A stretch of DNA of 40,722 bases from Candidatus Altimarinota bacterium (lineage in GTDB: Bacteria > Patescibacteriota > Gracilibacteria > UBA4473): assembly GCA_027028725.1 (NCBI GenBank), contig JALVIB010000013.1, forward strand, positions 1 to 40,722. Direction: 5' to 3'. The notes beneath the pieces are model-generated. The model worked only from the letters and a program-made list of their open reading frames with translations, was not told the DNA's origin and did not search any database. Of this stretch, positions 16,577 through 37,653 are shown in pieces. Numbering within the stretch: the first letter of the stretch is position 1; each line of letters opens with the position of its first letter. Both the position numbers and the translations under genes were made by a program.

Positions 16577-16578
16577 AT

Positions 16579-20403: not shown

Positions 20404-20406
20404 ATT

Positions 20407-23400
20407 TTATTGCACCACAATATCTTTTACCGGAATGAAAAATTCCGCGATTTTTTTGTCTATCCCTTTCTCGTTTTCGATGTTAATTGTAAAAATTAGT
20501 GGTTCTTTTTCATCAGTGGCTTTTTTCGGAAGAATTTTTAAGTTTTTCAAATAATCAGTTGCTTCAAATTTTCCCGAATTATTCAAAATTCCAACAGTCC
20601 GTTTGTTCGCATTGTCTAATAAAACAACTCCATCTGAAAAACTTTGCCAAACGAAATCATCTTGATCATCTGCGTCAACAACCTGAATTTCTGATGAATT
20701 TTTGACAGATTTCGCGGGAATTTCCGAAGTATTAGAGTTGATTTTGACATCATTTTCCCCGCTCGTTTTCAAGGTAATAGTCGCCATTTCCTCCATTTTG
20801 TCATCAGTAATTTTGATAGCAAAAGGTTTTGTCGTAATTCTCGTGTGAGCTTTTTTAGAATTCAAAATCATTGGACGACCAGTCGGCAAAATCGCCGCCA
20901 AAACTTCTTTTGTGTTTTTATCTTTTAATAAAATATTTCCAGATGTTCCTAATTCTTCTAACACAAAATTTCCACCTTTTTCAGAAATGGCAGTTTTTTC
21001 CAAAATATCTTTTCTCCCCTTTCGCTCACGCAAAACTCCAACTCTCAATCCACTAATCCCCTCTTTTATTTTCCCGCGAATTTTTTGTTCGCGCCGTGAA
21101 ACATCAATTAGTTTTAATTTTGGAACTTTAACTTCAATTGGAATAATTTGTGTCGCGATATTTCCGGATTCGTCAGCAATATTTAGCTCTACTTCAAAGT
21201 TCTGTGGAAAATTTTTCGCGGGCAATTTTATTTTTAATAATTGTGTCGGTGATTTTTTGTCTTTATCTGAATCAAGGAAAATGTGTCCGTCTCGCTTCCA
21301 CCAAACCCGCGAAATTTTTTGGTTATCATAACTTCCCGAAGCATCAATTTCAATCGGCGCTGTAATAAATGCTTCAATTTTACTTCCTTGTGAAATAATG
21401 ATTTGCGGCGGTTCGGTATCATCTCCCGGCTGTGGATCATGCAGTAAGTTTTTAGAGAGCACGAAACTTTCACCGTCTTTTTTGAAGGCCTTAAATTGTC
21501 CATAATGATTACCTAGATTTAGTTTTTGAAAGTTATCAATAAAATTTTCGCGGGAATTGAAGCTGTGTAGTTCATAACTTTCTCCACCATAAATGTGGAC
21601 TTTGGTATCGTTGTAAAGATTTAATTCTACTTCATCATTATTACCTAATTCAAAGCGCATATTGGAGAAAAAGTGATCTCCAACTTTCGGCACAAATTTT
21701 TCAATTTTTCCTAAATCCAAATAATTAATTTCTCCGCGAGTTAGACAAATTTCCGCGAAATCTACGGCAGTTTCTTCCCCCGCTCGCAAAATAATGTCGC
21801 GTTCTTCGGCTTGCTGTCCTTCTCGTTTTTTAGTTTTCACTCGGAATTGTGATTCTTTCCCAATTCCCACCAAAATTGTTTCTTCTGGGAAAAACGGCTT
21901 CACTACTTCCGGATCGCGACACTCGCTCGCGGAAAATCTCGCGATTTTTTTCATTTTATTTCCGTATAAAATTGGATGTCCAACAATCTTTTTAATTTGA
22001 GCTACTCCCGGACGAATCTCGTATTTATGACCTTTCGGGCGGATCAAAAATCCAATTCGTTTCCATTCTTTGGAATATTTTTCCACCGCCTTGCGGGGCA
22101 CTGCGCGGGATTTTGGTGTTTTTTCAAAGATTCGGTCCGGTCGCTCTGAAATAATCCACTCAAAGTAAGAAATTTCGCGGGATTTTGGTGGCAAAAATTC
22201 CAAACTAGATCCTATTGCATTAGTTTCTGAATTAAGTTCAATCGCTGGTGCGAAATATTTGGAAAATTCCGCGAAATTTTGGTGTATGACTTCTTTGGAA
22301 GTTTGTGATTCAGTTGGAAATTTATCTTTCAAGCGTTTCATAAAGAGTTGTCCGTCAATTGAGTAAAGTAATTCCGGTGTGCCATCTTCATCTAAATCAG
22401 AAACATTTAAAGTATGGATTTTCCCATTTACCGGAAAATCGGTAATCACTTCGGCTTTATCTTTTTGTGAATCGTAATAATATAGTTTGGCAATTGGTTG
22501 CGGCTCAATATTTTTTGGATCATATTTACTGGTATCAACATTATCCGGTAAGAAATTTGGTACATCATCAGCCGAAGCTAACATATTCTTGTAAAGAGCC
22601 AGATGTTTTTCAAGACGCGATTTAATTTTCTTTTGTTGAAAATCTAGCGGAATATCCGTTGCCGAATCAGCTAATTTTTTCAGTTTTTGTAAAACCGGTC
22701 TTGTGTCGATTTCTCCGGAATTATCTTCCACTTCGTCAAATAAATTTATCGCGACCGTTTCCACTTTCTCATTTTTTATCGACGAAGTTGGTAAATTTCG
22801 CGGGATTATACTTTCCGGATTTGGAATTCCACCTTTTCCCATCGTACTTAAAGTATTTGTGATGGCGTTCATTGTTTGTGCCAAAGCTGTCAAAGAAGCG
22901 TTTACACTTTCAAAAGCCGGCACAAGCGGAACTTTTGGTTTAATATTAATTGTTGGTGCTACCATTTTCGGCATAAGTGGTAGTTGTGCCGAAGGAACAA
23001 AATCCATTGGCAATAAACTTGTTCTATTTGTTAATTGCACAACTCGCGAAGCCACTTTCCATTCCGGAATTGGAATAATTCCCATTGATAACCAACACAG
23101 AATTGTTTTCATAAAAGGCTTAAAGGCAGAAACAATCGCCGTTACCGGTTTCAAAATATTTGGGAAATTTGGCGGTGGCAAAAGCGTTGGTAATTGAGGC
23201 AAATTAATTGTTGGCACTTTGATTTCCGGAACAACTTTTGGTAAAGGCGGCAAAACAACAATGTTTGGAACTTTGATTGTTGGAAATTTAGCGATAAAAT
23301 CAGCATTATAGTTGGCTGAATTTCCCGCGCTGTGCCCCGCTAAGCGGTGGAAATTTCCACCACCTGAAAGTGTTGATAAAGAAGAATCTAAACTAGCGTT

Positions 23401-26400
23401 ATAAGATTTAAGTTTGTTTTCAATGTTTTTTCCAGCGATTAACAGATCTGCTTCGTTGGTAATTCCTTCTAGTGAATCAAAAGTTAAATCTGTCATTTTT
23501 CCAACAGAACCAATTGAGGCAGTAAATCCTTTCAAAGAAGCGTTCAAGCTTTGATCAATTAATTTCGCGGGATTTATCTTGGCAGAAATAGTTGTCGGTA
23601 GTTTTGGTAAACTAACAGGAACTGGCGAAAATGATATTTCGGGAACTGTGACGGATACTCCAATTTTTACATCCGATAAATCAATCATTGTGTTCTGCAT
23701 TTGTGGCATCGGAATAACTGGCAATTTAACAGCGGAAAGCAAGATCTTTAATAACCAAGAAATCATCGTTCCACGATTAACTGAACTCGCTCCCCCACCT
23801 CCACCAGGGACACAACTCACTGTGAAGTCTTTAAATAGATTTGGAATATCATTCCAAGTATCAACGATGCCTTTAACTTTTTTCGCGAATTTTTTCCATT
23901 CTTTAACAGCTTGTTTGTTTTTATTTATCCAGGTTGACCAGTAAACTTCAACTACTTCGTTGATTTTTTCCATTTCCTCAACTGCTCGCTTAATTTTTTT
24001 AGGTAATTCTTTTAGTTTCTTGATCTCTGTCATATATGAATCCAATGCCCTAAGGTTTTCATCAAGAACTGTTTCTATTTTTTCAATCTCATCAATTTGT
24101 TCTTGAATTTTATTTTTCGCGGAATTTTTTAATTCTTGTGGTGTATTTTTTAATCCTATTAATTTTTCGTTAACTAAATTCTTCAATTCTGCCGATCGAG
24201 TCTTAATATTTTGAACCTCGTTTTTAATTGAAAGTTGTAAATCCGGTGGTAATTTACTCAGGTCTGGTAAATTGATTTCAGCTGAAAAATTATTATTAAA
24301 ATTTGTTTGAAAATCAGCAATAGCCCTATCAAAATCCTGAAAATCTGTCAGCTCTAAATCAACTAAACTTTGTGATAAACTCGCCTTGGCATCAGCGGAA
24401 GATTTTTTCCAAAAACTGAAATCTGTTTTTAATTTGTCTAATTTTTCGCGAGAAAAATCTGGATAATTTATCTGTAAATTTTTTCTTTTAACTTCGAAAT
24501 ATGGGGAAGCGGCTAATCTATCTAATGGCTTCATTGATTTATCACCGAATTTTAATTTCGGAAATTTAGGTAAAATTATATCAAACTGCGGGAATTTATA
24601 ATTACTAAATTCGTCCATTTGCGCCTTTGCCCATTCCGTAATAATATCCGGCGCTGCAATATTAAGATTTTGAGAATATCCACCGACTAACGGTGCAAAA
24701 GTTCCATAATTTACATTTCCGTTATCGGCAAAAGAATTTTGTAAAAAAGCATTTCGTGAAGCATTTTCATCAGAATTCGCGGGATTTTCAAAAATACAGT
24801 TATTTGAAGTGTCATTATTATTTCCATTTCCACTAGAAGACGAAGATGATAATGGTGGAACAATCACAAAACACTGTGGTGGGAAAGGGCTTCCGGTAGG
24901 CGACATTGAAGAATCGATAACTGGCCCACCGCAGATACCTATTCCTACTCGTAAAGTAGTTGTCGGCATTATATAAAGTCTAAACAGAGAAGTAGAATTT
25001 GGTCCTACCCCTACAAAAGGTGTAGATGGACCAACCCACAAAATAGGAAATCCTGGGAATTGTGGACCAGGAAAAGCAAACGGCGGAATATAGATGCTTT
25101 GTGGACCGGGAGCCAAGAACGCAATCGAAGGAATTTGTAATCCCGCGAAATTTTGTTTAACCGACATTTCTTGCATTAGTTCTTCAACATCCAGTGTATG
25201 ATAAAAAGGTGGCAAACCATCATCAGAAGAAGTTAAACACTCCAGCATATCACTTGCAGTCGATTCTGCATCAAAATCACTCGGAAAAGTTGTCCCCTCT
25301 GGAAAAGCATCAACGATTTTCTTGAGATGAGTTTTGACTATCGGTGAAGCCGGTGCATCAGGTGTTTTTTTCGCGGGATTTGGTGGATAAAGTTTGCCCG
25401 AACCATACGATAAATATTCGATAAATTTCTTTTTTCCATCAATCACCCACGGAATCAAAATATCATCAATGCCGTCTTTACCGACAAAATCAACCACTTT
25501 GAAACTAATTAACGGAACTTCTACTGTTTTTAATTTCCAAGAAATTCGAACAAGTTGTTGTTTTGGAATATTGCAACCGGAAATCATCATACTTTCCGAT
25601 TTTTCGGATATTTCGGGGTTTCCTTCGCAGTTTGTGAAATCAAAAGAATTGGTATCAACCTGAAATCCCGCGAATTTTGGAACAATTAATTTGAAGTTTT
25701 CCAAATCAATATTCGGTGAGTAAATAGTCACTTTTGCTGTAAATTCCGAATCTTTTTGAACTTTTAAATTATTTAAATTTCGCGGGTTTTCCTGTGTCAT
25801 TTCAAATTTAATGTTGAACGCTTTATTTTCAGTTACTCGTAAAAAATCAGTTTCTCCAATTTTTCGCAAGTTCGGCGTCCAAGCGTAGTCCAGAATATTA
25901 GAAAATCCCGCGAAAAAATTCTGTAAGTTTTTAAATTTATCAGGATTTATGTATTTCAAAGAACGATTTTGTCCATCAGCAGTTGTGTAGTACTCGGAAA
26001 TTTCTTGAAAAGTTGCTCCTGCCGAATCAAGCAATTGTGCTGAATAAAATCCGCCCTCTCGTCCGTAAACGAAATATAAATTATTGGAGTCATCAAGTAG
26101 AACTAAATCATCAAAAGCATCTGAATTAAGTTTGGCTACCGCGATTTTTTCAATTGGATTTAGCAATCCTAAATTAATTTTTTCGCGGGAAAATTTTCCG
26201 TCTTGATTGTGGTGAAAGATCAGTTTTCCCTCGTCATTAATTTGAATGATGTACTCTAAATCACCATTATTTTTATTGTAAGCGACAGTTTGTTTGGCAC
26301 CATCGGCAAACCGCAGAATTTTTCCGATATCACGGAAATTATCTTGATTGTGCGGATCAGCATAGAGCGCGGAAAGCGTGTCTCCGCTACGCACAAAAAT

Positions 26401-29400: not shown

Positions 29401-31941
29401 TAGCCAAGGAACTAAACATTTTGAAGGCCAAGAAAAAATATTTCCCGTACAAGAATTTTCACTGGCTGATTTTTCAAAAAGCTTCTCGAATTCCTGTTGT
29501 AGTTTCAAATTTTCGCGGGAATTTATTTTTTTGTATTCTGTTGCAACTTCATCATTGGCTGAAGTTATATCGGCCTGATTTTTTAAGTCAACAAAACTGG
29601 TACTTGGTTTTTCATCACCACGCTCAAAAGCAATTTTTAGTCCGTTATTATTTTCAAAATCCGCTAATTCCCCGCGAATTTCTATTAACTCATAACCATC
29701 AAAATCTGATTGTTTTAAGGCATTTCGCGCTTTACCGGGCGCCGACATCGCCGCCGTCAACATTTCAATATTTTTTGTTTCCAAATCCTTTCCCAGCCAC
29801 TTAATCGCTTCAATTAGTTCTTTTTGTTTCCCCGAATTCATCCAGATAGAATCCGCGAAATATGATTCTTGGATTTTTCCAGCATTTCCCGCTGTTGAAT
29901 TAATTTCGTCTATTGTAGACAAAAGTTGTTGTTCTAAGTCCGCCTTAGTTAAAATTTCAAAATTTTCATCAGTTTCCTCACGCTTGTTAATTAAATCAAA
30001 AGCACTCGGAAAATAAATTCGGTAAAAATTATAATCGTAATCATAAAAAGAAATTCCGTGATGCGGATCAATTGGTAAAGCATTTGTTATTTTATTTTTC
30101 AGTTGGGCCTTAATTGTGTCTATTGTTGGTTCGTTGTGAACCATTAGAGAGGAAATTTCGATTTTCTTTTTGTTCGCAGCAGCAGTTCTAACTGCCGTAT
30201 CTTGTAATTCTAAAATAATAGGAGCGCAAGCACTAGCTCCATCATAGCGAGAATCAGAAATTTCGCGGGATCCTGTCATGCTAAAAATTGGAGAATTTAC
30301 TGATTCATACCAATGATTATAAGGTAGAGACTGAGTTGGATCATAAACTGCCTTATCCCAATAATAGTGAACTTTTACTTCTTCATTACTTCTCATATGA
30401 GATATATATAACGGTAAACGACATTTATGATAATCAATATCACTACCACTAATTTTTCCACAACAACGATCGTCTGGATAAATATCATCACTAGTAACAA
30501 CTTTGCTAAATTTATGCGGATTAAAAACCCGCGAAATTTCTACTTTTTGAGCAATTGGATTAGAGTCTGAACGAAGTGTTCCCCGATAAAGAGAACAATT
30601 CTCTGCAGGATACTTTATATCAGCTGTTTCATACTCTCCTGTTCTCCAATTCCATTTTTTAAAGTATTTGTTTTCTACTGGCTTACTAAAAGGTATCCCT
30701 AACCATTCAGCAGGAAAATGTTTTAAACAAGTACTTTCATCATTATTAACACATCCAACATCTTCTATTATAAGATTTACTTTGGCCGCAATATTATTTT
30801 CATCAACCTTATTAATTAAAATATTCTCTACTTCATCAGTAGCTTCTTTCAAAATATCTGATGCCCACTGGTCTTTTTTGGCAATTAGTGAAATGGTCGT
30901 ATCAATATCCGGCGCTTCCCAGCGACCAGCGACTTCTACTTGCTCATTAATTTGCGATAATAAATTTTTATTCGCGGTCAGATACCGCATTGACATTGTT
31001 TCAATTGGATTTTTGGTAAAAATATCAGGAATTTGCGATAAATCCATTGACTGATCTTGTCCTTGCATTGAGTTCGGCAAAAGTTCGTTTGGCACGCCTT
31101 GTCCCATTTCTTTATCTAGCAATTCCTGCAACCAATGCTTATTAAAGCGGTGATAAACAAAATCACCCAAATGATTAATCCAGTTCTCATAAAATTGTTT
31201 TTGTTTCTCACTTATCCCCCGTCGTTGACGGAAAAAATCCGCGAAAAAAACTTTTTTGGAATAATTTATCTTTTTCTGGTGAACTTGGTGATTACGCGTA
31301 AAATATTTTTTTAATTCTGCAATTTGCAATTCTAAATCATCAGCATCAGACCGAATTAATCCGTGCCAAATTTCCGGCTCATTATCTCCCCCAACCCATT
31401 TAAAGCGTTTTCTATCAAAATCCCATTGATAAGAAGTATCTTCAAAATCAACATACGGAAAAATCGCGGGATTTAGACCGCCGTTTTTGTCAACAATTGG
31501 CAGAGGAACCTCTCCGATTAAAATTGTTCCAATTAATTGTGACTTATGATCATTTTCGTATCCGGAAAAATAAAGTTGCGCCAAACCTTCCTGAATTTCT
31601 TTGGGAGAAGCGTCTTCCGGTACATTGATAACAATTGCCCGCGAATTTAGTTCATTCTGAACATCCTGTGCATATCGTTCGATGTCGCCTTTTAAATCTG
31701 TGTCTAGAAGTTCTTCCTGAACCAGAATTGCCACAATTTTTTCGCGGGAAATTGGCGGAAGTTCTTTTTCCGGCTTTTCTGAAATATCTTTCTGTTTATC
31801 CTTTTTAATGAAGTTTATATTCCCAAAATCAAAATCAAAAAGTGCTTTGGCTTCCGCGATTGGTGCCCCAATAGAGAAAAAAACTGACAAAAGCGCCACA
31901 AAACTAGCAAATTTTTGCCATAACTTTTCTTTAAAAAACAT
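20407..31941 (-). CDS. giant (3,844 aa) membrane-anchored surface protein with Ig-like (Big_1-like) and FG-GAP/VCBS-like repeats, Pro/Gly-rich hydrophobic segments and a coiled coil
   Basis: Single uninterrupted ORF. N-terminal signal/anchor (FASFVALLSVFFSIGAPIAEAKA). Invasin-like Ig repeats at about 27760-29250 (VTLKDADGKILKND..., AKILDNEGNIDHSFDG..., RVLDKYGNLADFDG...). FG-GAP-like DxDxDG-type segments (GDLNFDNSREIF, NSDAFDDLVLLDDSNNLYF, SDLDEDGTPELLYS). Contains 30 short motifs and 5 composite repeats, all in frame. Confidence 0.8.
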   Translation of the reverse strand: MFFKEKLWQKFASFVALLSVFFSIGAPIAEAKALFDFDFGNINFIKKDKQKDISEKPEKELPPISREKIVAILVQEELLDTDLKGDIERYAQDVQNELNSRAIVINVPEDASPKEIQEGLAQLYFSGYENDHKSQLIGTILIGEVPLPIVDKNGGLNPAIFPYVDFEDTSYQWDFDRKRFKWVGGDNEPEIWHGLIRSDADDLELQIAELKKYFTRNHQVHQKKINYSKKVFFADFFRQRRGISEKQKQFYENWINHLGDFVYHRFNKHWLQELLDKEMGQGVPNELLPNSMQGQDQSMDLSQIPDIFTKNPIETMSMRYLTANKNLLSQINEQVEVAGRWEAPDIDTTISLIAKKDQWASDILKEATDEVENILINKVDENNIAAKVNLIIEDVGCVNNDESTCLKHFPAEWLGIPFSKPVENKYFKKWNWRTGEYETADIKYPAENCSLYRGTLRSDSNPIAQKVEISRVFNPHKFSKVVTSDDIYPDDRCCGKISGSDIDYHKCRLPLYISHMRSNEEVKVHYYWDKAVYDPTQSLPYNHWYESVNSPIFSMTGSREISDSRYDGASACAPIILELQDTAVRTAAANKKKIEISSLMVHNEPTIDTIKAQLKNKITNALPIDPHHGISFYDYDYNFYRIYFPSAFDLINKREETDENFEILTKADLEQQLLSTIDEINSTAGNAGKIQESYFADSIWMNSGKQKELIEAIKWLGKDLETKNIEMLTAAMSAPGKARNALKQSDFDGYELIEIRGELADFENNNGLKIAFERGDEKPSTSFVDLKNQADITSANDEVATEYKKINSRENLKLQQEFEKLFEKSASENSCTGNIFSWPSKCLVPWLQELPNVLSKITKLIPNVDLEKEDSSENTDKNPAKNLSSFDLSPVKTADEIVISEIAAEPSAIKISNNETFPQEIKVTLKDADGKILKNDYSTEVELISNSSDLENFFTITPAKKVLVKAGQAKFFLLPKRGPNGGVVKFKFRGNSVESNEVQIKISTKRISASSDKEKITAGDGTGTEISAKILDNEGNIDHSFDGEILEFTSEKGRFFSEEFTSGARAKIKDGIAKIVFLPGIKAGEAEIIVQDEQKLLPPAKIYFDILPAEPAKIEIFSAPDKLVINGVKQNFFTGITDKYGNEIPELAEQIKWQIGENLTLEKGEKAGEVFIQAHEPEEEFLKKITKILPTKKSPPQSGAQREIPTEHISLVAEIPTKEDEKPLLLKKSRAVPRKAVEILLAKNPVFETIIPEKDLRAGDTEPLKIKVLAKTADGKILKNDFVAQVLVSDKAKATALPEIVFENGEAELEIFAGEKAGNLNVQISAPGFVKNNFSLQIFAGDPYQIQLLSSKKTLNVDDENPLDLQVRVLDKYGNLADFDGEVQFAVNPPENFADKAQDLKDLNILDNPAKVDALVQNQNQNPANSSPVISLESENLTITNGLGINKIYPVEHGGKAYIVAQNDDLLPGTIEIDAVKVLTTSDFKHLSPKSLLTLLLGFAGGDLTKPNIGNRFLFDGETQAVATQIADKKQAKKLGNIFADGKISTALRGTARDFQPEVVSGSKWEVVLNKKVSAKFNFDSKVDFWAGRKKIEEDGIYFIPVEELDIKEFYLKSREIFYQEQPLFKIAPQGGIFVENSKLELRIKDNSLYHWEVYLEGKLLGEIILKMTDPQFNLEELQTPKKLFSKKEAGLEVSKKVSEIFQAKNFAGNSLFFQSLDPSIKLEKSLNGLTTTSPKGIAVIAKNEFETPDKILKAPNFPTTDEKLGWTTSWKGGLLFAAKNSVGEATKFSCSENCILLGDPTLSVASENEKSELGLTKDLGKPIYRTNQGVIDEVMTGDLNFDNSREIFVRSGDTLSALYADPHNQDNFRDIGKILRFADGAKQTVAYNKNNGDLEYIIQINDEGKLIFHHNQDGKFSREKINLGLLNPIEKIAVAKLNSDAFDDLVLLDDSNNLYFVYGREGGFYSAQLLDSAGATFQEISEYYTTADGQNRSLKYINPDKFKNLQNFFAGFSNILDYAWTPNLRKIGETDFLRVTENKAFNIKFEMTQENPRNLNNLKVQKDSEFTAKVTIYSPNIDLENFKLIVPKFAGFQVDTNSFDFTNCEGNPEISEKSESMMISGCNIPKQQLVRISWKLKTVEVPLISFKVVDFVGKDGIDDILIPWVIDGKKKFIEYLSYGSGKLYPPNPAKKTPDAPASPIVKTHLKKIVDAFPEGTTFPSDFDAESTASDMLECLTSSDDGLPPFYHTLDVEELMQEMSVKQNFAGLQIPSIAFLAPGPQSIYIPPFAFPGPQFPGFPILWVGPSTPFVGVGPNSTSLFRLYIMPTTTLRVGIGICGGPVIDSSMSPTGSPFPPQCFVIVPPLSSSSSSGNGNNNDTSNNCIFENPANSDENASRNAFLQNSFADNGNVNYGTFAPLVGGYSQNLNIAAPDIITEWAKAQMDEFSNYKFPQFDIILPKFPKLKFGDKSMKPLDRLAASPYFEVKRKNLQINYPDFSREKLDKLKTDFSFWKKSSADAKASLSQSLVDLELTDFQDFDRAIADFQTNFNNNFSAEINLPDLSKLPPDLQLSIKNEVQNIKTRSAELKNLVNEKLIGLKNTPQELKNSAKNKIQEQIDEIEKIETVLDENLRALDSYMTEIKKLKELPKKIKRAVEEMEKINEVVEVYWSTWINKNKQAVKEWKKFAKKVKGIVDTWNDIPNLFKDFTVSCVPGGGGGASSVNRGTMISWLLKILLSAVKLPVIPMPQMQNTMIDLSDVKIGVSVTVPEISFSPVPVSLPKLPTTISAKINPAKLIDQSLNASLKGFTASIGSVGKMTDLTFDSLEGITNEADLLIAGKNIENKLKSYNASLDSSLSTLSGGGNFHRLAGHSAGNSANYNADFIAKFPTIKVPNIVVLPPLPKVVPEIKVPTINLPQLPTLLPPPNFPNILKPVTAIVSAFKPFMKTILCWLSMGIIPIPEWKVASRVVQLTNRTSLLPMDFVPSAQLPLMPKMVAPTINIKPKVPLVPAFESVNASLTALAQTMNAITNTLSTMGKGGIPNPESIIPRNLPTSSIKNEKVETVAINLFDEVEDNSGEIDTRPVLQKLKKLADSATDIPLDFQQKKIKSRLEKHLALYKNMLASADDVPNFLPDNVDTSKYDPKNIEPQPIAKLYYYDSQKDKAEVITDFPVNGKIHTLNVSDLDEDGTPELLYSIDGQLFMKRLKDKFPTESQTSKEVIHQNFAEFSKYFAPAIELNSETNAIGSSLEFLPPKSREISYFEWIISERPDRIFEKTPKSRAVPRKAVEKYSKEWKRIGFLIRPKGHKYEIRPGVAQIKKIVGHPILYGNKMKKIARFSASECRDPEVVKPFFPEETILVGIGKESQFRVKTKKREGQQAEERDIILRAGEETAVDFAEICLTRGEINYLDLGKIEKFVPKVGDHFFSNMRFELGNNDEVELNLYNDTKVHIYGGESYELHSFNSRENFIDNFQKLNLGNHYGQFKAFKKDGESFVLSKNLLHDPQPGDDTEPPQIIISQGSKIEAFITAPIEIDASGSYDNQKISRVWWKRDGHIFLDSDKDKKSPTQLLKIKLPAKNFPQNFEVELNIADESGNIATQIIPIEVKVPKLKLIDVSRREQKIRGKIKEGISGLRVGVLRERKGRKDILEKTAISEKGGNFVLEELGTSGNILLKDKNTKEVLAAILPTGRPMILNSKKAHTRITTKPFAIKITDDKMEEMATITLKTSGENDVKINSNTSEIPAKSVKNSSEIQVVDADDQDDFVWQSFSDGVVLLDNANKRTVGILNNSGKFEATDYLKNLKILPKKATDEKEPLIFTINIENEKGIDKKIAEFFIPVKDIVVQ
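22078..22114 (-). repeat. composite element copy c (in frame in the giant gene)
   Basis: Reverse complement is AAAATCCCGCG-CAGTGCCCCGCAAGGCGGTGG-AAAA. Read as KSRAVPRKAVEK. Confidence 0.9.
23319..23356 (+). repeat. composite element copy d (in frame in the giant gene)
   Basis: AATTTCCCGCG-CTGTGCCCCGCTAAGCGGTGG-AAATTT. Read antisense as NFHRLAGHSAGNS. Confidence 0.9.
27277..27316 (+). repeat. composite element copy e (in frame in the giant gene)
   Basis: AAAATCCCGCG-CTGTGCCCCGCAAGGCGGTGG-AAATTTTT. Read antisense as ISTALRGTARDF. Confidence 0.9.
28223..28263 (-). repeat. composite element copy f (in frame in the giant gene)
   Basis: Reverse complement is AAAAAATCCCGCG-CTGTGCCCCGCAAGGCGGTGG-AAATTTT. 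Read as KKSRAVPRKAVEI. Confidence 0.9.
28330..28368 (+). repeat. composite element copy g: the same cassette inside an opposite-orientation host motif (in frame in the giant gene)
   Basis: AATTTCGCG-CTGTGCCCCGCTCTGCGGTGG-GGATTTTTT. Read antisense as SPPQSGAQREI. Confidence 0.85.
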
Positions 31942-32007
31942 AATATCAGGGGGTTTGTTTTTCTTTGCCTGAATTATGTATCTTTTTTTCTAAAAACTCA
32001 ATAAATT

Positions 32008-32015
32008 TTCGCGGG
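32008..32015 (-). repeat. short motif core, 12 nt after the 1,796-aa gene stop
   Basis: Minus-strand reading is TAAAATCCCTAAAATCCCGCGAAAATTT. Confidence 0.9.
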
Positions 32016-32027
32016 ATTTTAGGGATT

Positions 32028-35000
32028 TTATTTTGGAGGACTCCAACTCATTAAAACTTTTTCAATAACTTCAGTATTTTCAAAGTATTTTTCGCGTGTT
32101 TCTGGACTATCTAATAATTTTTTTGCCTTTTCCCAAACACCACTTTCTTCCAACTTCTTTTTTCGCTCTTTATATTGAATTCCATATTCCAAAACACCCA
32201 TAAAATCTAAAACTTCTCCAAATCCATCATCACCACCAGCAACTTGAAAAACCTGTTTCATAAAACTATTAATTTGTTCTTTGCTTCTTTGAGCCGAAGC
32301 TGAATAACCTGTATCTTCCTTTCTCCAATCTTCTGCATTAAAGACTATTGAACCACGCTCCTGTCCAAGGTTAATATTACCTTGAAGTGTTTGAGTTACA
32401 GTTAAAGCCGCATTTAATCTGTCTCCAACCTCAATTAATGCTCTTTTCCTTTCTTTTTGCCAACCAGGTAATTCACCCCATTTTTCATCTCCTTCTTTAA
32501 TATAATCCCGCATCATTTGCATATATGTCGGAAATCCTGATAAATAACGACGCCAAAGGTCGTTTGACAATTTGTTTTCACCACCAGAAGATTGTGACAT
32601 ATTGTTTATAAGATGGACCTGCTTCCAGTCCGCGAAAAAACTTTCTGCATCATCATGATCTCCCTCTTTATCTGAAAAACGATCCATTCGCGAAACACGA
32701 TCACGAGCCGGTGGGGAAGCATGTACAATATGATAAAAGAATTTTTTTGTTTGTTCTTTAATATTAGAATCATTAAGAATATCAAAAGACCCACCTCCAT
32801 TACCAAGAAAGTCTCCCCAAGCCTTATAGTCTTCATATGTCCACCCTCTTTTTTCTGCTCCTGGAGTGTCTTCTGGAACAATTCTGCCATTTAATTTATA
32901 AGATTCCTTATCTGTTAAAAAATCAACATGTGGAAATCTTGCTAAAAATTTATCATTAATTCGCATAAAGGCATCTCGTGAAATTAAACTACGATTTGTT
33001 TTAGGATTTATAGTAGCAACCCCCATTACTAAAAAATACCATCTTTGATCAGGTTGTCCGTTCATTTTTCCTTTCTCAAAAGACTCATGAATAAAACATT
33101 CATATTTCGCGGGATCTACATCTGTACTATCTCCTCTTGCCCATTTTTTTAACATTGTTGATAAAATCCTACTCCTAGCTACAGGAGAGTCCTCATATCT
33201 AGCAAAATCAGCTTTAAAACTATCGATTGCTGAATCAAGTTTACCTTTAAGATTAGTATCCCAATCTCGGAATGTTTCTTTTGACCAAATAAATTCACAA
33301 GCATTACGAACTTTGTCCAAGATTTCTAAACGAGAAAGATTTAAGTCTTCAGGAATACGGAAAGTAACTGCATTTCCGGACAACCTCATCAAAGTTCTCC
33401 ATAGTCCAGGATCATCCCATTGCAAAACCCCCTTATCTAACATCAATCTAATCAAAGCTTTAGCTTCATCTTGGTCATTGGTACGATATAAGGCATCTTG
33501 CAAATCCCATCCCGGCACTTCTCCATACTGAGTTTCAAATTCTTTAACCCGGTTTTCTTCTGCTTCTTCTGCCTTTTGCTTAAAATCTTTTCCCCAAGCT
33601 GATTTCTCACCAAAAAAACTCATTCCAATATTTGCCACAGCTCGCTCTGAATCACGCTGCCATCTTCTTTCATGCACTTCAATTGCTTGTTTTACAATGG
33701 CATATAAATCATACAATGAGAATCTTTGATAATTCCTCTGAGGACCACTGTTTTTGGCATTATCATCATATTCTGTCACCCATTTTTTAATTTTTTGCGC
33801 ACTATCATTGGCGCTCTTTGAATAATCTCGCAAAGAATTAAAATCTGCCATTTCAGCAATAGCTTCTGCTCTGTCCTGCGGAGATGCATCATAACGATTA
33901 ATCCAGTCTTTTAGGAACCCTGACTTAAAAAATTTATCTGATTTTTCTTTAAATTCATTCAGTCTTGCTCTATGTTGACTCAAAATATCTTCTAAATACT
34001 CCTTATCCAAACCATATTTATTAAAGAAGTCTTGATCATCCATTTTGTTTAAATCTCGACGGATTCGACTTTCAACATCATTAATTGCTTCCTGATATTC
34101 CGCGAAATCTTTTTTAAACCCTTTAACTACCTCATTATAATTTTTGGTAAATTCTTCTTTATCAGGCGTATCATCATCAAAAAATTGCAACTCGGTCAGA
34201 AGCTCCAAAGCTCTATTGGAATCTTCCAAATATTTATTTAAAGACTCACTTTCTTTAGCAAATTTCCCGTCTCGAAAATTCAAAGCTGTTTCAAGTTTGA
34301 TGAAATTATCAGCGAAAATTTCCCAGAAAGTCTCTTTTCCCGTAAATTTATAATCAATTTTTTTCGCGTGTTTTTGCAAATTATCAAAAGTCTTCTGGAA
34401 ACTATCCAACATTTTCATTGGAACTTCCATCAATAAATCGGTAAATTCAGCCGGATTAACTCCTTCCGGCAAAACTTCGTTAATGACTGTACCTAAATCT
34501 AAAAATTTATTTCTTAATTTCTCCTTTTGTTCCGGCCATTTCTCAAAAAGTTTATCTAACTCATTTTTAGCTTCTGCTTGACGCAAACTCGCCGCAATCG
34601 GATCATCTTTCATCTTAGAAATCCCGCGAAATTTTTCAGCAATTTGGGCAATATCATCCCGTAATCCATTAGTTATTTCTGCAATTTCATTATTAACACT
34701 CTGTGTTTGTAAAGCTATTTCATTCAAAAACTCGCGCCCCGGAGCCCAAATTAATTTAGGTTTACCATTTTTATCTTTTCCCCAATATCGCCCGCCTCTT
34801 TGATAAGCTTGTTTGCGGTACTCAAAGGACTCTTCTAATTTATCTGCTTCATCTAAATAATGTTGTTTTTTCGCGGGATTTGTTTCTTCTTCAGCTTTAC
34901 GACGCAACCGTTCTACATAAGCTTCATTAACTTGGTGTGCATCTTCTATTTCTTGTGATGTAATTAATTTATTTTGCTCATAAGCCACATGATCTTCGTG

Positions 35001-37418
35001 TAATTTTGTCGGATCAACTCCCGCTGCCAAACCATTATGAATTCGGTCCCAACCAGCATAGAAGTCATTTAATTCTTCTTCGGTCAATTCATCACGAACA
35101 TCTCTTGAGGCAATATCAAAGATTCGATCTCGATAACTGTGAATTGCTCCATCAACAAGCTGTGAAAGTTGTTGTGGATGCGGAAATTCTTGTCGCAAAT
35201 CAAATCCTTCTTCTGCCAAACGCGCAATAATATTTTCGTAACTAAGCGCTTTATCTAGTTCGTTATACCATGGCGAGAATTTATCTTCTCCGTCTGAAAG
35301 ATGTTCAATATCCGGTAAAACAGTGTCTTCAAAAATTGATTCCAAAATTCCCGCGAATTTTTGACGAAATTCATTAACTTTTTCCTTATTTGGAGTGTTT
35401 AGAATATTATCGCGAAATTCCGCAAAATCTGCATAATAAGGATTTCGCGGATTATTAACTTCGTCTCCCCAGAGAACTTCAAAATCCGCCGCATATAAAT
35501 TTCGATTAGCAATTCTTGAATTTATATTACTTAAAAATAAATCCTTTGATTCTCTCGCGACTTTTTTCGGGTCTTTTAGGAAATGTTGCCAAGTTTTATA
35601 TGTGTCTAAATTCTTTGTTTCATCGCGAACCTTTTCTTTTAATTTTTTATATTTTTCATTTAGCTTATTTCTTTCTTCCTCGTAAGAACTTACGATTGGC
35701 ACTTGTCCATAAAGCGTTTTGGCTTGATTTTCCCACCTATTAATTTCTTGACCATACTTTTTAAATCCTTCCTGTTGTTTCTTGTAATTCTCATTTTCTT
35801 TTAAGTCTGAGCTAAGCTTAATTGATAATTCTCTAAATTCTTCAATAAATTTTTCGCGGGATTTTAAATCACTTCCTATGCTTGCCTTATCCGTTGAAAA
35901 TCTTTTTATTTTCGCGGGAATTCCTTCTTTTATCTCTTTTTCTTTATTTTCAAATCTTTTTTCATTATTTTTCAGTAATTCTTCTCTTCTCTTCTCATCT
36001 TCTATTTTCTGAATTTCTAAATCACTTTTAATTTTTTCCAATTCAAGTTCTTCTAATTTCTTTTCCTTTATGCTTTCCCATGCCTTTTCCAAATCCTTAA
36101 CCCATTCATCAAAATCTTTATTCCAATGTCTTTCAATAATTTCATTTTTTTCTTCTAATAATTTTTTATAGTTCTGCTCAATTACTTCTACTTTATTAAA
36201 ATCAACAATTTTAGACGCTTCCCAAGCGTCTTTAATTTTTTTCTTCTCCGTCTCATTTCCTTCTAAATAAGACTGAAGACCATATCTTTCTACTGACAAT
36301 TTTTTATTTTCCAAATCTCGCAGTTTCTTTTCCAACTTATCTAGTTCCTCATTTTCCGCAGAAAAATTGAGCCATTCATCTAAATCTTTAATTTGAACGA
36401 GTTCAAAATCTTCTTGCAAAATTTCGTGCAAAGCTTGCAGATGTGTCGGCAAGAAAACCGGCGATTTTTGCGCAAATTGCAAAAACTTAATCGCTTCAGT
36501 TGATTTAAATGCTTTATTAATCTCTTCTTCTTTTACGATACTGAGAATTTTGCGTCGCAAAGTTTCTGCCGACTCTACTTCTGATGGACTTCCCAAAAAC
36601 TCGCGAAGTAATTCCCAAGTAAAAGCCATATTAGGATTGTAAAGTTTCTTTGGCGACTTCAAGAGAGTGGCCACCGCCTGAACAGCAATATTATCCCAAT
36701 CATAAAACCGACTTTTTTCCGCCCATTTTCTCTCGTTCGGAAACATTCGACGAATCTCCAAAACAAGCAATTTTTCTTCCAAAGTCATTACTTCATTCTT
36801 CTTTGATTCAATAATATCGTAGGCCTTATCCCCGCTAGTGACAGACTTGGTCATCAAAGTAAAAGCCTTATCCACAATTTTTTCGCGGGCTTTTTCAAAA
36901 ACATCTTTTCGTTTCCCGTCTTTCAAAACAGCATTTTTTTGTAACCTTCGATACAAAGCACAAACTTTGGAAAGCTCAAAAGTGCTCCAATTATTTTTAT
37001 TCACAATGCTCCCCAAAGCACGCACCTGCTTATCAACTTCCGCGATAATTTGGTTCTGCATACGCTTTGGTAGAAGCTTACGCAGTGGAGAATCCGCTAA
37101 ATGATTCAACAATCGCGGTGGCAAATCTTCCATATCTTTCCCCCGCGCTAAGCTCAGCTGATATCCCGCGATATTTCGAAAACGACGCTTTTGAAAAGCG
37201 TTCATATGCTCCGCATTTTCTTCCAAAAATCGCAATTCTTTCACACCAAACCCTAGCGGACTGCGCAGAGCTTTTTCTATTTGTTTATCAATATCTTCCT
37301 TATCTTCAGGAACAGAAGGTCCTTTTGGTCCACCGGCAAAGTATAAAAATTTACCAGCGCCGTGCCCCGCTAAGCGGTGGAAATCTTCATTTTCAAACCC
37401 GTTAAATAATTTTTTCAT
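32028..37418 (-). CDS. large (about 1,796 aa) E/K-rich coiled-coil protein, no signal peptide, unknown function
   Basis: Uninterrupted ORF 86 nt upstream of the giant gene on the same strand. Start set at MKKLFNG (ATG complement 37416-37418), because the tracked 23-aa extension is read through a motif copy (FFAGF). No catalytic motif recognised. Confidence 0.65.
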   Translation of the reverse strand: MKKLFNGFENEDFHRLAGHGAGKFLYFAGGPKGPSVPEDKEDIDKQIEKALRSPLGFGVKELRFLEENAEHMNAFQKRRFRNIAGYQLSLARGKDMEDLPPRLLNHLADSPLRKLLPKRMQNQIIAEVDKQVRALGSIVNKNNWSTFELSKVCALYRRLQKNAVLKDGKRKDVFEKAREKIVDKAFTLMTKSVTSGDKAYDIIESKKNEVMTLEEKLLVLEIRRMFPNERKWAEKSRFYDWDNIAVQAVATLLKSPKKLYNPNMAFTWELLREFLGSPSEVESAETLRRKILSIVKEEEINKAFKSTEAIKFLQFAQKSPVFLPTHLQALHEILQEDFELVQIKDLDEWLNFSAENEELDKLEKKLRDLENKKLSVERYGLQSYLEGNETEKKKIKDAWEASKIVDFNKVEVIEQNYKKLLEEKNEIIERHWNKDFDEWVKDLEKAWESIKEKKLEELELEKIKSDLEIQKIEDEKRREELLKNNEKRFENKEKEIKEGIPAKIKRFSTDKASIGSDLKSREKFIEEFRELSIKLSSDLKENENYKKQQEGFKKYGQEINRWENQAKTLYGQVPIVSSYEEERNKLNEKYKKLKEKVRDETKNLDTYKTWQHFLKDPKKVARESKDLFLSNINSRIANRNLYAADFEVLWGDEVNNPRNPYYADFAEFRDNILNTPNKEKVNEFRQKFAGILESIFEDTVLPDIEHLSDGEDKFSPWYNELDKALSYENIIARLAEEGFDLRQEFPHPQQLSQLVDGAIHSYRDRIFDIASRDVRDELTEEELNDFYAGWDRIHNGLAAGVDPTKLHEDHVAYEQNKLITSQEIEDAHQVNEAYVERLRRKAEEETNPAKKQHYLDEADKLEESFEYRKQAYQRGGRYWGKDKNGKPKLIWAPGREFLNEIALQTQSVNNEIAEITNGLRDDIAQIAEKFRGISKMKDDPIAASLRQAEAKNELDKLFEKWPEQKEKLRNKFLDLGTVINEVLPEGVNPAEFTDLLMEVPMKMLDSFQKTFDNLQKHAKKIDYKFTGKETFWEIFADNFIKLETALNFRDGKFAKESESLNKYLEDSNRALELLTELQFFDDDTPDKEEFTKNYNEVVKGFKKDFAEYQEAINDVESRIRRDLNKMDDQDFFNKYGLDKEYLEDILSQHRARLNEFKEKSDKFFKSGFLKDWINRYDASPQDRAEAIAEMADFNSLRDYSKSANDSAQKIKKWVTEYDDNAKNSGPQRNYQRFSLYDLYAIVKQAIEVHERRWQRDSERAVANIGMSFFGEKSAWGKDFKQKAEEAEENRVKEFETQYGEVPGWDLQDALYRTNDQDEAKALIRLMLDKGVLQWDDPGLWRTLMRLSGNAVTFRIPEDLNLSRLEILDKVRNACEFIWSKETFRDWDTNLKGKLDSAIDSFKADFARYEDSPVARSRILSTMLKKWARGDSTDVDPAKYECFIHESFEKGKMNGQPDQRWYFLVMGVATINPKTNRSLISRDAFMRINDKFLARFPHVDFLTDKESYKLNGRIVPEDTPGAEKRGWTYEDYKAWGDFLGNGGGSFDILNDSNIKEQTKKFFYHIVHASPPARDRVSRMDRFSDKEGDHDDAESFFADWKQVHLINNMSQSSGGENKLSNDLWRRYLSGFPTYMQMMRDYIKEGDEKWGELPGWQKERKRALIEVGDRLNAALTVTQTLQGNINLGQERGSIVFNAEDWRKEDTGYSASAQRSKEQINSFMKQVFQVAGGDDGFGEVLDFMGVLEYGIQYKERKKKLEESGVWEKAKKLLDSPETREKYFENTEVIEKVLMSWSPPK
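37354..37385 (+). repeat. composite element copy h (degenerate left flank; in frame at the N-terminus of the 1,796-aa gene)
   Basis: CCAGCG-CCGTGCCCCGCTAAGCGGTGG-AAATC. Read antisense as DFHRLAGHGAGKF. Confidence 0.8.
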
Positions 37419-37640: not shown

Positions 37641-37653
37641 AAATTTCTTCCCC

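What the first reader, a model, noticed from the sequence alone, without database searches (positions are those of the whole stretch)
20407..37418. Tandem giant-gene module: 1,796-aa cytoplasmic coiled-coil protein followed by a 3,844-aa surface protein
Two co-directional ORFs separated by 86 nt occupy 42% of the window. The upstream product has no signal peptide and is dominated by E/K-rich heptad-like segments. The downstream product has an N-terminal anchor, Ig-like and FG-GAP/VCBS-like repeats, two Pro/Gly-rich hydrophobic regions and a long coiled coil. I recognise no secretion ATPase, pilin or known adhesin-export partner nearby. The divergent neighbour (37827-39860) is a bitopic PP2C-like membrane protein. 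The module then runs on into hicBA, the Cys-rich gene and galU on the same strand. In an organism with an otherwise minimal gene set, this investment suggests a cell-surface apparatus for attachment to or interaction with another cell. The function is unknown and the pairing may be an undescribed system.
Basis: inference. Interest (0 to 1): 0.7.

Follow-up and report, generated by a model that had tools for sequence, protein, structure and literature searches.

The report
Conserved giant gene pair in Peribacteria
Two very large neighbouring genes in a tiny-genome (CPR) bacterium encode a 3,844-residue exported cell-surface protein and, just upstream, a 1,796-residue cytoplasmic helical protein; they stay adjacent across distant relatives, but neither has a known function, and each family also occurs without the other next to it.

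Summary
Two minus-strand ORFs (32028-37418, 1,796 aa; 20407-31941, 3,844 aa) lie 86 nt apart, and both have homologues.

The downstream protein belongs to a family of 3,200-5,200-aa exported proteins from Gracilibacteria/Peregrinibacteria. It has a Sec-type signal, a gingipain/caspase-like N-terminal domain, Ig-like and FG-GAP modules, Pro/Gly-rich segments and a coiled coil. Distant members carry SLH cell-wall anchors.

The upstream protein has no membrane segment and is all-alpha. It belongs to a large uncharacterised family (502 clusters) with no Pfam, NCBIfam, PHROG, PDB or Foldseek match.

The pair is adjacent in all 10 loci (window included) whose giant is at least 28% identical, including a locus that reads TGA as sense. 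More distant giants (3 loci) lack the partner. Distant partner homologues (about 10 loci) lack a giant and instead end a conserved cassette containing a 6-7-TM membrane protein.

My best reading is a lineage-specific coupling of a surface attachment protein to the cytoplasmic component of an unknown membrane machine. Function is inferred, not shown. The neighbour's "PP2C-like" label is not supported.

In passing, I found an 11-mer present 52 times (0.08 expected) that is targeted by a 21-nt in-frame mini-insertion.

The parts
32028..37418 (-). Gene for the 1,796-aa cytoplasmic all-alpha protein, the upstream partner
   Evidence: ORF. No TM segment. Homologues at 57-59% (P0002-4) and 28-35% in Gracilibacteria loci. 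No Pfam, NCBIfam or PHROG hit.
32499..33740 (-). Conserved core of the upstream protein (residues ~1227-1640; motifs RWDDP..LW, GKMNGQPDQRWYF, DHDD)
   Evidence: This is the region matched by all distant family members (profile positions ~188-600). The AF2 model is all-alpha with pLDDT 74.7. There is no significant Foldseek hit.
35619..36521 (-). E/K-rich, poorly conserved helical segment of the upstream protein (residues ~300-600)
   Evidence: E+K is 29-44% per 100 aa. Column identity is 0.20-0.25.
31942..32027 (-). 86-nt gap between the two genes. It holds a promoter-like site (TTGAGT-17-CATAAT, 32001-31973) and one copy of the 11-mer, and has no terminator-like hairpin on the minus strand.
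   Evidence: The equivalent gap is 82-216 nt in nine loci.
20407..31941 (-). Gene for the 3,844-aa exported giant surface protein
   Evidence: ORF. 46 homologues of 3,200-5,226 aa, with source names Gracilibacteria or Peregrinibacteria.
31843..31941 (-). N-terminal Sec-type signal peptide or signal anchor (residues 1-33, ...APIAEA/KA)
   Evidence: KD 2.05 at residues 11-29. The family-averaged hydropathy of 1.89 is the only strong peak in the protein.
31270..31752 (-). Gingipain/caspase-like (clan CD fold) alpha/beta domain, residues ~64-224. It has an invariant W-H-G and a near-invariant Asp in the 'VFFAD' strand.
   Evidence: AF2 pLDDT is 83-93 over this stretch. The top Foldseek hit is RgpB 4ief_D (prob 1.00, rmsd 3.8 over 158 columns), followed by many caspases.
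29812..31269 (-). Rest of the conserved N-terminal 'head' (residues ~225-710), including the Cys-rich part with invariant C..RG and CC motifs
   Evidence: Conserved in 15 or more homologues. AF2 confidence is low here.
27742..29244 (-). Ig-like repeat region (residues ~900-1400)
   Evidence: Invasin_D3 36.1 bits (cut-off 33), GH2_C5 32.3 (cut-off 32), Big_1 28.2.
26101..26271 (-). FG-GAP-like repeat (residues 1891-1947), within a well conserved block at 1700-1970
   Evidence: PF13517 at 18-20 bits, below the cut-off. Homologues carry PF13517.
24847..25149 (-). Conserved Pro/Gly-rich moderately hydrophobic region (residues ~2265-2365)
   Evidence: P+G is 26-28%. Column identity is 0.53-0.58 and mean hydropathy is ~0.5, so this is not a canonical TM segment.
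23842..24474 (-). Helical or coiled-coil stalk (residues ~2490-2700)
   Evidence: E+K reaches 33% with almost no P/G. Only weak coiled-coil-type hits were found.
22912..23844 (-). Pro-rich segments with two amphipathic hydrophobic helices (residues ~2700-3010)
   Evidence: Family-averaged KD is only 1.0-1.2 and the helices contain Lys. The region is conserved across the family.
20410..22524 (-). C-terminal region (residues 3140-3844) with an FG-GAP-like repeat and beta-rich modules. It has no LPXTG, SLH or C-terminal TM segment.
37827..39860 (+). Divergent 677-aa bitopic protein: cytoplasmic N-domain, one TM segment at 323-341, and an extracellular PQQ-like beta-propeller. It is a conserved neighbour only in Peribacteria loci.
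   Evidence: It is 76-79% identical in L001, L002, L008 and L012. It has no relation to the cassette 'mid' proteins.
16193..17193 (-). TPR protein (204 aa) and thioredoxin (103 aa). These are the conserved downstream neighbours of the giant gene in relatives. In the window they are separated from it by hicBA-like ORFs, the 559-aa Cys-rich gene and galU.
   Evidence: The TPR protein is 59-68% identical in L004, L033 and L034. The gene order is shown.

Best explanation
The downstream gene encodes a Sec-exported, cell-envelope-associated giant protein. It belongs to a family confined to the Gracilibacteria/Peregrinibacteria branch of the CPR. Its modules run in this order:
- a gingipain/caspase-fold head, probably not a cysteine peptidase because Asp sits where the catalytic Cys is expected;
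- a Cys-rich module;
- Ig-like repeats;
- an FG-GAP propeller;
- Pro/Gly-rich wall-spanning-type segments;
- a helical stalk;
- beta-rich C-terminal modules.

It most likely acts as an attachment fibre towards another cell.

The upstream gene encodes the cytoplasmic all-alpha component of an uncharacterised, widespread membrane-associated cassette. That cassette consists of a small 2-TM protein, a variable 500-850-aa protein, a 6-7-TM protein and this large cytoplasmic protein. In this lineage the giant gene has become fixed immediately downstream of the cytoplasmic component. The two are therefore co-expressed, and the cytoplasmic protein, with its membrane partners wherever they are encoded, probably helps to deploy, anchor or position the surface protein.

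Shown here: the anatomy, the family memberships, the conserved adjacency and the cassette.
Inferred: export by Sec, the adhesive role, and any physical or functional link between the two proteins.
For: Adjacency is kept in all 10 loci, counting the window, whose giant is 28-62% identical: window, L001, L003, L004, L005, L006/7, L009, L011, L033, L034. It persists while the flanks are rearranged. The upstream cassette is present in L004, L005, L006, L009 and L034 but absent in the window and L033. hicBA, the 559-aa gene and galU are inserted downstream only in the window. Adjacency also persists across a genetic-code change (L011).

Both genes are always co-directional with an 82-216-nt gap, and no terminator-like hairpin lies in the window's gap.

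Surface location of the giant is supported by the N-terminal signal, the Ig-like and FG-GAP modules, and the SLH domains in distant homologues.

Cytoplasmic location of the partner is supported by the absence of a TM segment in 148 of 148 family members.

Its membrane-machine context is supported by the conserved cassette, with a 6-7-TM protein directly upstream in 17 loci.

The literature proposes host attachment for giant envelope proteins of this clade (PMC8080830, PMC13059738, PMC4736985).
Against: Each family occurs without the other nearby. Giants at 21-24% identity have no partner within 10 kb (L030, L031, L032). Partner homologues of 1,170-1,450 aa in about 10 loci are followed by ATP synthase or other genes, not a giant.

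Adjacency within one clade could be inherited synteny, since the TPR-thioredoxin and L1-L11-NusG block is also syntenic.

A promoter-like site lies in the gap, so co-transcription is not shown.

The window holds no homologue of the membrane cassette proteins.

No domain of known function was found in the partner. No expression, localisation or interaction data exist.
Confidence: 0.45

Rival explanations
1. Adjacency is inherited gene order only. The 1,796-aa protein works solely with its membrane cassette in a general CPR envelope or housekeeping process. The giant is an independent surface or S-layer-associated adhesin with its own promoter.
For: Both families occur apart. The whole neighbourhood (TPR, thioredoxin, L1-L11-NusG-SecE) is syntenic in the clade. 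There is always a gap of 82-216 nt, and the window's gap has a promoter-like site. Distant cassettes sit among housekeeping genes such as ATP synthase.
Against: The pair stays together in 10 of 10 loci, counting the window, even where genes on both sides have been lost, inserted or inverted (window and L033 versus L004 and L034), at only 28-35% protein identity. That is more than the surrounding synteny retains.
Confidence: 0.33
2. The cassette plus the large cytoplasmic protein is a dedicated export or assembly pathway for very large surface proteins, analogous to the accessory Sec system for serine-rich adhesins. The giant is its cargo.
For: A polytopic membrane protein and a large cytoplasmic protein are encoded directly upstream of the giant in L004, L005, L006, L009 and L034. 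The giant lacks any recognisable anchor. There is a very weak SecF-like hit for the polytopic protein (16.8 bits).
Against: The giant has an ordinary Sec signal. There is no ATPase motif anywhere in the cassette. The cassette exists in many loci without a giant nearby. The SecF hit is far below the cut-off of 304 bits.
Confidence: 0.12
3. The giant protein is a contact-dependent membrane-active (pore-forming or fusogenic) device. In this reading the conserved Pro/Gly-rich hydrophobic region, the long helical stalk and the amphipathic helices insert into the partner cell's membrane.
For: A conserved, moderately hydrophobic P/G-rich block at 2265-2365 is followed by a helical stalk and two amphipathic hydrophobic helices. 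None of them looks like a canonical TM segment of the cell's own membrane. Predatory relatives consume the host cytoplasm (PMC8080830).
Against: No similarity to any fusogen or toxin was found. Pro-rich segments are equally typical of wall-spanning regions of Gram-positive-type surface proteins. The idea rests on architecture alone.
Confidence: 0.07
4. An ordinary RTX/Bap-type adhesin with export partners encoded elsewhere.
For: Large size, and Ig-like and FG-GAP/VCBS-like repeats.
Against: There is no RTX, Bap or cadherin-type Pfam match. The protein has an N-terminal Sec signal rather than a C-terminal T1SS signal. No ABC, MFP or TolC genes lie in the window. The family is confined to one CPR branch.
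Confidence: 0.03

Closest known systems
Giant envelope proteins of Absconditabacteria, Gracilibacteria and Peribacteria (Vampirococcus lugosii, Strigamonas, Ca. Peribacter riflensis)
   Same: They come from the same bacterial branch. They are very large (1,200-4,200 aa) predicted surface proteins with integrin/FG-GAP, Ig-like or SLH modules, and a role in host attachment has been proposed for them (PMC8080830, PMC13059738, PMC4736985). The homologues found here carry Gracilibacteria or Peregrinibacteria names.
   Different: Those papers list such proteins only in general terms. The passages I read describe neither the conserved pairing with a ~1,800-aa cytoplasmic protein, nor the upstream membrane cassette, nor the clan-CD-like head.
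Gingipain (peptidase C25) and caspase fold, clan CD
   Same: The N-terminal alpha/beta domain (residues ~64-224) superposes best on RgpB and then on caspases. An invariant His-Gly follows a hydrophobic strand, as in clan CD.
   Different: There is no Pfam C25 match. The strand that should end in Ala-Cys ends in Ala-Asp ('VFFAD', near-invariant), as read from motif spacing alone. The Foldseek E-value is weak (0.048). A cysteine-peptidase activity is therefore unlikely.
SLH-anchored S-layer-associated proteins
   Same: Distant members of the giant family carry SLH domains, so the family is cell-wall associated.
   Different: The window protein and its closer relatives have no SLH domain. How they are retained on the cell is unknown.
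Accessory Sec (SecA2/SecY2-Asp) loci for giant serine-rich adhesins
   Same: The concept is the same: a giant adhesin gene lies next to genes for a polytopic membrane protein and cytoplasmic accessory proteins.
   Different: There is no homology, no SecA2/SecY2, no ATPase motif and no serine-rich repeats.
Mycoplasma mobile gliding operon (gli123-gli349-gli521)
   Same: Tandem giant genes that take up a large share of a minimal genome and build a surface apparatus. This comparison rests on my own knowledge.
   Different: In Mycoplasma all the products are surface proteins. Here the first product is cytoplasmic. No sequence or fold similarity was found.

Membership tests
Giant surface-protein family of Gracilibacteria/Peregrinibacteria (P0005-P0050) | Collinear homology over the N-terminal head, the 1700-1970 block, the 2250-2790 block and the C-terminal region | tested here: met
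   46 homologues. BLASTP segments cover these blocks in 10-46 proteins.
Giant surface-protein family of Gracilibacteria/Peregrinibacteria (P0005-P0050) | N-terminal export signal | tested here: met
   KD 2.05 at residues 11-29. The family-averaged value is 1.89 with 0.87 occupancy.
1,796-aa protein family (P0001-4, P0053-P0202) | Conserved C-terminal core (RWDD, GK..PDQRWYF, DHDD motifs) | tested here: met
   hmmsearch found 502 clusters at E<=1e-3 and 188 at E<=1e-30. The invariant columns are shared.
1,796-aa protein family (P0001-4, P0053-P0202) | Encoded directly after a 6-7-TM membrane protein in a small/mid/polytopic cassette | tested here: not met
   No window ORF matches the cassette HMMs at E<=1. 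The cassette is present in L004-6, L009, L014-17, L020, L023-25 and L034.
Clan CD cysteine peptidase (C25 gingipain / caspase) | Caspase-hemoglobinase alpha/beta fold | tested here: inconclusive
   The top Foldseek hits are RgpB (prob 1.00, E 0.048) and caspases, for the high-confidence part of the model. There is no Pfam hit.
Clan CD cysteine peptidase (C25 gingipain / caspase) | Catalytic His-Cys dyad | tested here: not met
   His is invariant (W-H-G). The expected Ala-Cys position reads Ala-Asp and is near-invariant. The assignment rests on motif spacing, not on a structural superposition.
RTX/Bap adhesin with type I secretion | RTX or Bap repeats, a C-terminal secretion signal, and neighbouring ABC/MFP genes | tested here: not met
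   No such Pfam matches. The protein has an N-terminal signal. No T1SS genes lie in the window.
SLH-anchored surface protein | SLH domain (PF00395) | tested here: not met
   Absent from the window protein. Present in distant homologues P0022 and P0041.
Sortase substrate | C-terminal LPXTG followed by a TM segment | tested here: not met
   No LP.[TSA]G motif and no C-terminal hydrophobic segment.
Type IV secretion system | VirB4-type ATPase and VirB6/TrbL polytopic protein | tested here: not met
   No Walker A motif is conserved in any cassette protein. Cassette proteins have no Pfam or NCBIfam hits.
PP2C phosphatase (677-aa neighbour) | PP2C catalytic domain | tested here: not met
   No Pfam or NCBIfam hit. 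PDB sequence hits cover only the C-terminal beta-propeller.
Class II terpene cyclase (considered because of the D-x-D-D motif) | Alpha/alpha-barrel fold with DxDD and QW motifs | tested here: not met
   DHDD is present, but there is no Pfam prenyltransferase or SHC hit, and Foldseek finds no cyclase.
HicAB toxin-antitoxin (19804-20260) | HicA and HicB domains | tested here: inconclusive
   The 61-aa ORF has a HicA-like sequence on reading, and a HicB-like 68-89-aa ORF lies upstream. Pfam gave only a weak DUF7387 hit for the 89-aa ORF. The 61-aa ORF was not scanned.

The most novel reading that the evidence does not exclude
The 1,796-aa family, with its small 2-TM, 'mid' and 6-7-TM partners, forms a previously unrecognised envelope machine that is widespread in CPR bacteria. 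In Gracilibacteria and Peribacteria it has been coupled to a giant extracellular fibre. The conserved Pro/Gly-rich hydrophobic module and stalk of that fibre would engage, or even breach, the membrane of the host cell. This would make it a new type of cell-cell contact apparatus.
Probability: 0.15. Interest if true: 0.85.

Novelty: new variant of a known kind. Interest (0 to 1): 0.55.

Why it matters
How CPR/Patescibacteria attach to and exploit other cells is an open question, and giant envelope proteins are the usual suspects. This work turns a single odd locus into three testable objects:
- a defined giant-protein family with a clan-CD-fold head;
- a large, completely uncharacterised cytoplasmic protein family (about 500 clusters at 50% identity);
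- a conserved membrane cassette that links them.

If the coupling is functional, it identifies the intracellular side of a surface attachment apparatus in a major uncultured lineage. If it is not, the cassette is still one of the more widespread unannotated gene sets in these genomes.

Tried and rejected
- Pfam, NCBIfam and PHROGs gave no usable hit for the 1,796-aa protein, for distant family members or for the cassette proteins.
- PDB sequence searches with profiles A1, A6 and A8 and with the whole giant returned only coiled-coil or vinculin-type noise.
- Foldseek with the C-terminal model of the 1,796-aa protein found nothing significant against PDB or BFVD.
- The third word-indexed homologue search (A2) returned only two proteins, because low-complexity words swamped the candidate list.
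- A 32-sequence alignment was too divergent for the metagenome scan, so a 7-sequence alignment was used instead.
- I tested whether the 677-aa neighbour is a diverged cassette 'mid' protein. hhalign gave a probability of 0.2%, so this was rejected.
- I tested whether the internal hydrophobic stretches are TM helices. Family-averaged hydropathy is only 1.0-1.2, so this was rejected.
- Walker A motifs are not conserved in any component.
- I considered a class II terpene cyclase because of the DHDD motif. There is no fold or Pfam support.
- The shared 'FHRLAGH' peptide in both giant proteins is not a protein motif. It is the translation of a 21-nt DNA insertion.
- The genes downstream of distant giants share only a weak ~73-aa C-terminal similarity, and it is absent from the window.
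- I could not determine the taxonomy of the metagenomic cassette loci.
Full report
**1. Observation.**
The window (37% G+C) carries two co-directional minus-strand ORFs. One runs 32028-37418 and gives 1,796 aa from the ATG; a TTG at 37487 would add 23 residues. The other runs 20407-31941 and gives 3,844 aa. They are 86 nt apart. Family alignments start at the ATG. Neither ORF contains an in-frame TGA, and TGA terminates the neighbouring 559-aa gene, so the standard code is in use. Both products have full-length homologues, so they are genuine genes.

**2. Organism.**
The closest genome records are named 'uncultured Candidatus Peribacteria bacterium' (70-71% identity). More distant ones are named 'Candidatus Gracilibacteria bacterium'. 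The rest of the window is housekeeping: Mur ligase, TrmD, MraY, L19, MutL, PGM, TruB, thioredoxin and a GalU-type transferase. No tRNA or Rfam family was found.

**3. The 3,844-aa protein.**
- It has no Pfam or NCBIfam hit above cut-off when scanned whole.
- Scanned in segments, Ig-like modules just pass (Invasin_D3 36.1 bits against a cut-off of 33; GH2_C5 32.3 against 32; Big_1 28.2). An FG-GAP repeat is sub-threshold.
- It has 46 homologues of 3,200-5,226 aa. All those that carry a source taxon name are from Gracilibacteria or Peregrinibacteria (others are labelled only 'bacterium' or 'hypothetical protein'). The distant ones carry SLH and FG-GAP domains.
- Four blocks are conserved: the N-terminal head (60-700, found in all homologues), 1700-1970, 2250-2790 and 3140-3840.
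- The only strongly hydrophobic segment, in this protein and averaged over 13 family members, is the N-terminal signal (KD 2.05 and 1.89). The internal 'hydrophobic' stretches average only 1.0-1.2 and are amphipathic and Pro-rich. I therefore read them as wall-spanning or interaction segments and not as TM helices of the cell's own membrane.
- There is no LPXTG, SLH or C-terminal anchor.
- An AF2 model of residues 40-710 (16-sequence alignment) is confident only for residues ~64-224 (pLDDT 83-93). That part superposes best on gingipain RgpB (4ief_D, prob 1.00, rmsd 3.8 Å over 158 columns, E 0.048) and then on a series of caspases.
- The alignment has an invariant W-H-G. About 42 residues later comes a near-invariant 'VFFAD' strand. 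By the clan-CD pattern (hydrophobic strand-His-Gly, then hydrophobic strand-Ala-Cys; my knowledge), Asp occupies the Cys position. A cysteine-peptidase activity is therefore unlikely. This is an inference from motif spacing, not from a superposition.

**4. The 1,796-aa protein.**
- It has no TM segment and no Walker A motif.
- E+K exceeds 29% only in the poorly conserved residues ~300-600.
- The best conserved part is residues ~1230-1700. It is rich in invariant Trp, Asp and Gly, with motifs RWDDP..LW, GKMNGQPDQRWYF and DHDD.
- An exhaustive profile search with the C-terminal 757 residues found 502 clusters (50% identity level) at E<=1e-3 and 188 at E<=1e-30. They fall into two size classes, ~1,600-2,090 aa and ~1,050-1,580 aa, and share the core at residues ~1227-1640.
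- None of the 148 retrieved members has a predicted TM segment. None of those scanned has a Pfam domain.
- AF2 predicts an all-alpha domain (pLDDT 74.7, pTM 0.59). Foldseek finds nothing significant in PDB or BFVD, and PDB profile searches give only noise.

**5. Conservation of the pair.**
- A homologue of the 1,796-aa protein lies directly upstream of, and co-directional with, a homologue of the giant in L001 and L003 (57-59% and 54% identity), L004/L010, L006/L007, L034 and L011 (34-37% and 34-36%), L009, L033 and L005/L013 (28-38% and 28-29%).
- That is 10 of 10 loci, counting the window, in which a giant of at least 28% identity and its upstream region are visible.
- In L011 the giant can be followed only if TGA is read as sense, so the pairing spans a genetic-code change.
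- The gap is always 82-216 nt. In the window it holds a promoter-like site and no terminator-like hairpin, although such consensus hits are no more frequent here than in shuffled sequence.
- The flanks vary. L004, L005, L006, L009 and L034 have three or four further co-directional genes upstream. The window and L033 do not. hicBA-like ORFs, the Cys-rich 559-aa gene and galU lie between the giant and the conserved TPR-thioredoxin genes only in the window.

**6. Limits of the pairing.**
- Giants at 21-24% identity (P0017, P0032, P0041) have no 1,796-type gene within 10 kb. P0032 follows PilB, PilC and a pilin gene.
- Conversely, a metagenome scan with distant members of the 1,796-aa family returned 16 loci. 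In the informative ones the homologue (1,167-1,448 aa) is the last gene of a tightly packed cassette: a ~160-200-aa protein with a hydrophobic hairpin, a ~510-840-aa variable protein, sometimes a further 300-500-aa protein, a 670-855-aa protein with 6-7 TM segments, and then the large cytoplasmic protein.
- Those cassettes are followed by ATP synthase or other genes, never by a homologue of the giant.
- The same small and polytopic proteins precede the pair in the Gracilibacteria loci.
- None of these cassette proteins has a Pfam, NCBIfam, PHROG or PDB match or a conserved nucleotide-binding motif.
- The window contains no homologue of them.

**7. The divergent neighbour.**
The 677-aa protein is bitopic (TM segment at 323-341). 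Its C-terminal part is a PQQ-like beta-propeller (E 1e-12 to designed propellers and 4e-7 to a PQQ-repeat protein). No PP2C signal was found. It is a conserved divergent neighbour in the Peribacteria loci (76-79% identity). It is absent from the Gracilibacteria loci and unrelated to the cassette 'mid' proteins.

**8. Interpretation.**
What is shown:
- a lineage-restricted giant exported protein family;
- a broad cytoplasmic protein family tied to a membrane-protein cassette;
- a clade-wide, rearrangement-resistant adjacency of the two.

What is inferred: the giant acts in cell-cell attachment, as proposed for giant envelope proteins of Vampirococcus, Strigamonas and Ca. Peribacter (PMC8080830, PMC13059738, PMC4736985), and the cytoplasmic partner contributes to its deployment.

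The main rival is plain inherited synteny, which I rate only slightly lower. An RTX/Bap-type adhesin, a sortase substrate, an SLH protein, a T4SS and accessory Sec were each tested against their defining features, and none was met.

**9. Novelty.**
Giant surface proteins in this branch are known in general terms. The passages I read in the literature available here do not describe the specific family anatomy (clan-CD-fold head), the conserved cytoplasmic partner, or the cassette it belongs to. I file the locus as a new variant of a known kind, with an uncharacterised partner family of real interest.

**10. Seen in passing.**
- The 11-mer ATCCCGCGAAA occurs 52 times in 40.7 kb, against 0.08 expected. 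It is also abundant in the Peribacteria relatives and nearly absent from all other loci fetched by that point (a single copy, in L014).
- Ten copies are split by a 21-nt hairpin insert: ATCCCGCG|CTGTGCCCCGCAAGGCGGTGG|AAA.
- Nine of those ten lie inside ORFs and are read through in several frames. Five are in the giant gene and one is in the 1,796-aa gene.
- Against the 62%-identical homologue, two of them are exact 7-aa insertions into K-S-R-E, which is the translated 11-mer.
- This explains the 'FHRLAGH' peptide shared by the two giant proteins. It may also relate to the tens-of-bp indels reported in large Peribacter proteins (PMC4736985).

Noticed in passing
whole window (e.g. 193-203, 3137-3147, 20395-20405, 32007-32017, 37445-37455); also L001, L002, L003, L008: The 11-mer ATCCCGCGAAA occurs 52 times on both strands, in genes and between them, against 0.08 expected from shuffles. 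That is about one copy per 780 bp, similar to the density of DNA-uptake sequences. It is equally abundant in Peribacteria relatives (13 in 17 kb, 11 in 9.7 kb, 13 in 11.6 kb) and nearly absent from the other loci fetched by then, with a single copy in L014.
   Followed up: partly
window 4980-5011, 19487-19518, 22080-22111, 23322-23353, 27280-27311, 28227-28258, 28331-28362, 37352-37383, 38561-38592, 40533-40564: A 21-nt GC-rich hairpin (CTGTGCCCCGCAAGGCGGTGG and variants) is inserted inside the abundant 11-mer. Nine of ten copies lie within ORFs and are read through in different frames and orientations (FHRLAGHS/GAG, SRAVPRKAVE, STALRGTARDF, SPPQSGAQRE). Compared with the 62%-identical homologue P0006, two copies are exact 7-aa insertions into K-S-R-E. 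This looks like a miniature in-frame insertion element, reminiscent of Rickettsia palindromic elements.
   Followed up: partly
L004, L005, L006, L009, L014-L017, L020, L023-L025, L034: A conserved, unannotated 4-5-gene cassette: a ~160-200-aa protein with a hydrophobic hairpin, a variable 500-850-aa protein, a 670-855-aa protein with 6-7 TM segments, and a 1,170-2,030-aa cytoplasmic protein. None has a Pfam, NCBIfam, PHROG or PDB match. It is probably widespread in CPR metagenomes.
   Followed up: partly
L030 6799-25681: A distant (21% identical) 5,226-aa SLH-bearing member of the giant family lies directly downstream of PilB-like (T2SSE), PilC-like (T2SSF) and pilin (N_methyl) genes. This suggests a link between the giant family and type IV pilus machinery in another lineage.
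   Followed up: no
window 8167-8220, 9612-9665, 10509-10562, 16156-16209, 37654-37707: Repeated AT-rich blocks (TTAACTATTAACTTTTAACTATTAA) lie in intergenic regions, usually followed by the 11-mer. One is in the divergent region upstream of the 1,796-aa gene. Their role is unknown.
   Followed up: no
window 5817-5893, 7853-7929, 9503-9579, 37559-37645; also 11765-11808 and 39882-39925: Families of GC-rich perfect hairpins (for example GCGCGGTCACGTGACCGCGC, GGGCGATCCCTTGTGGTCGCCC, AAGTCCGGACTT pairs) lie in intergenic regions of this AT-rich sequence. Two of them sit in the divergent promoter region between the 1,796-aa and 677-aa genes.
   Followed up: no
window 18122-19801 (-): A 559-aa protein with many CxxC-type cysteine pairs and no family hit in Pfam or NCBIfam. 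It lies between the hicBA-like ORFs and galU, and it carries one of the 21-nt insertions.
   Followed up: no
window 16579-17193 (-): The 204-aa TPR protein downstream is 59-68% identical to its counterparts next to the giant gene in Gracilibacteria loci. That is far more conserved than the giant (34%) or its partner (35%).
   Followed up: no
L011 4183-11271: The giant homologue in this Gracilibacteria contig is continuous only when TGA is read as a sense codon (code 25), whereas the window uses TGA as a stop. The gene pair is therefore conserved across a genetic-code boundary.
   Followed up: partly
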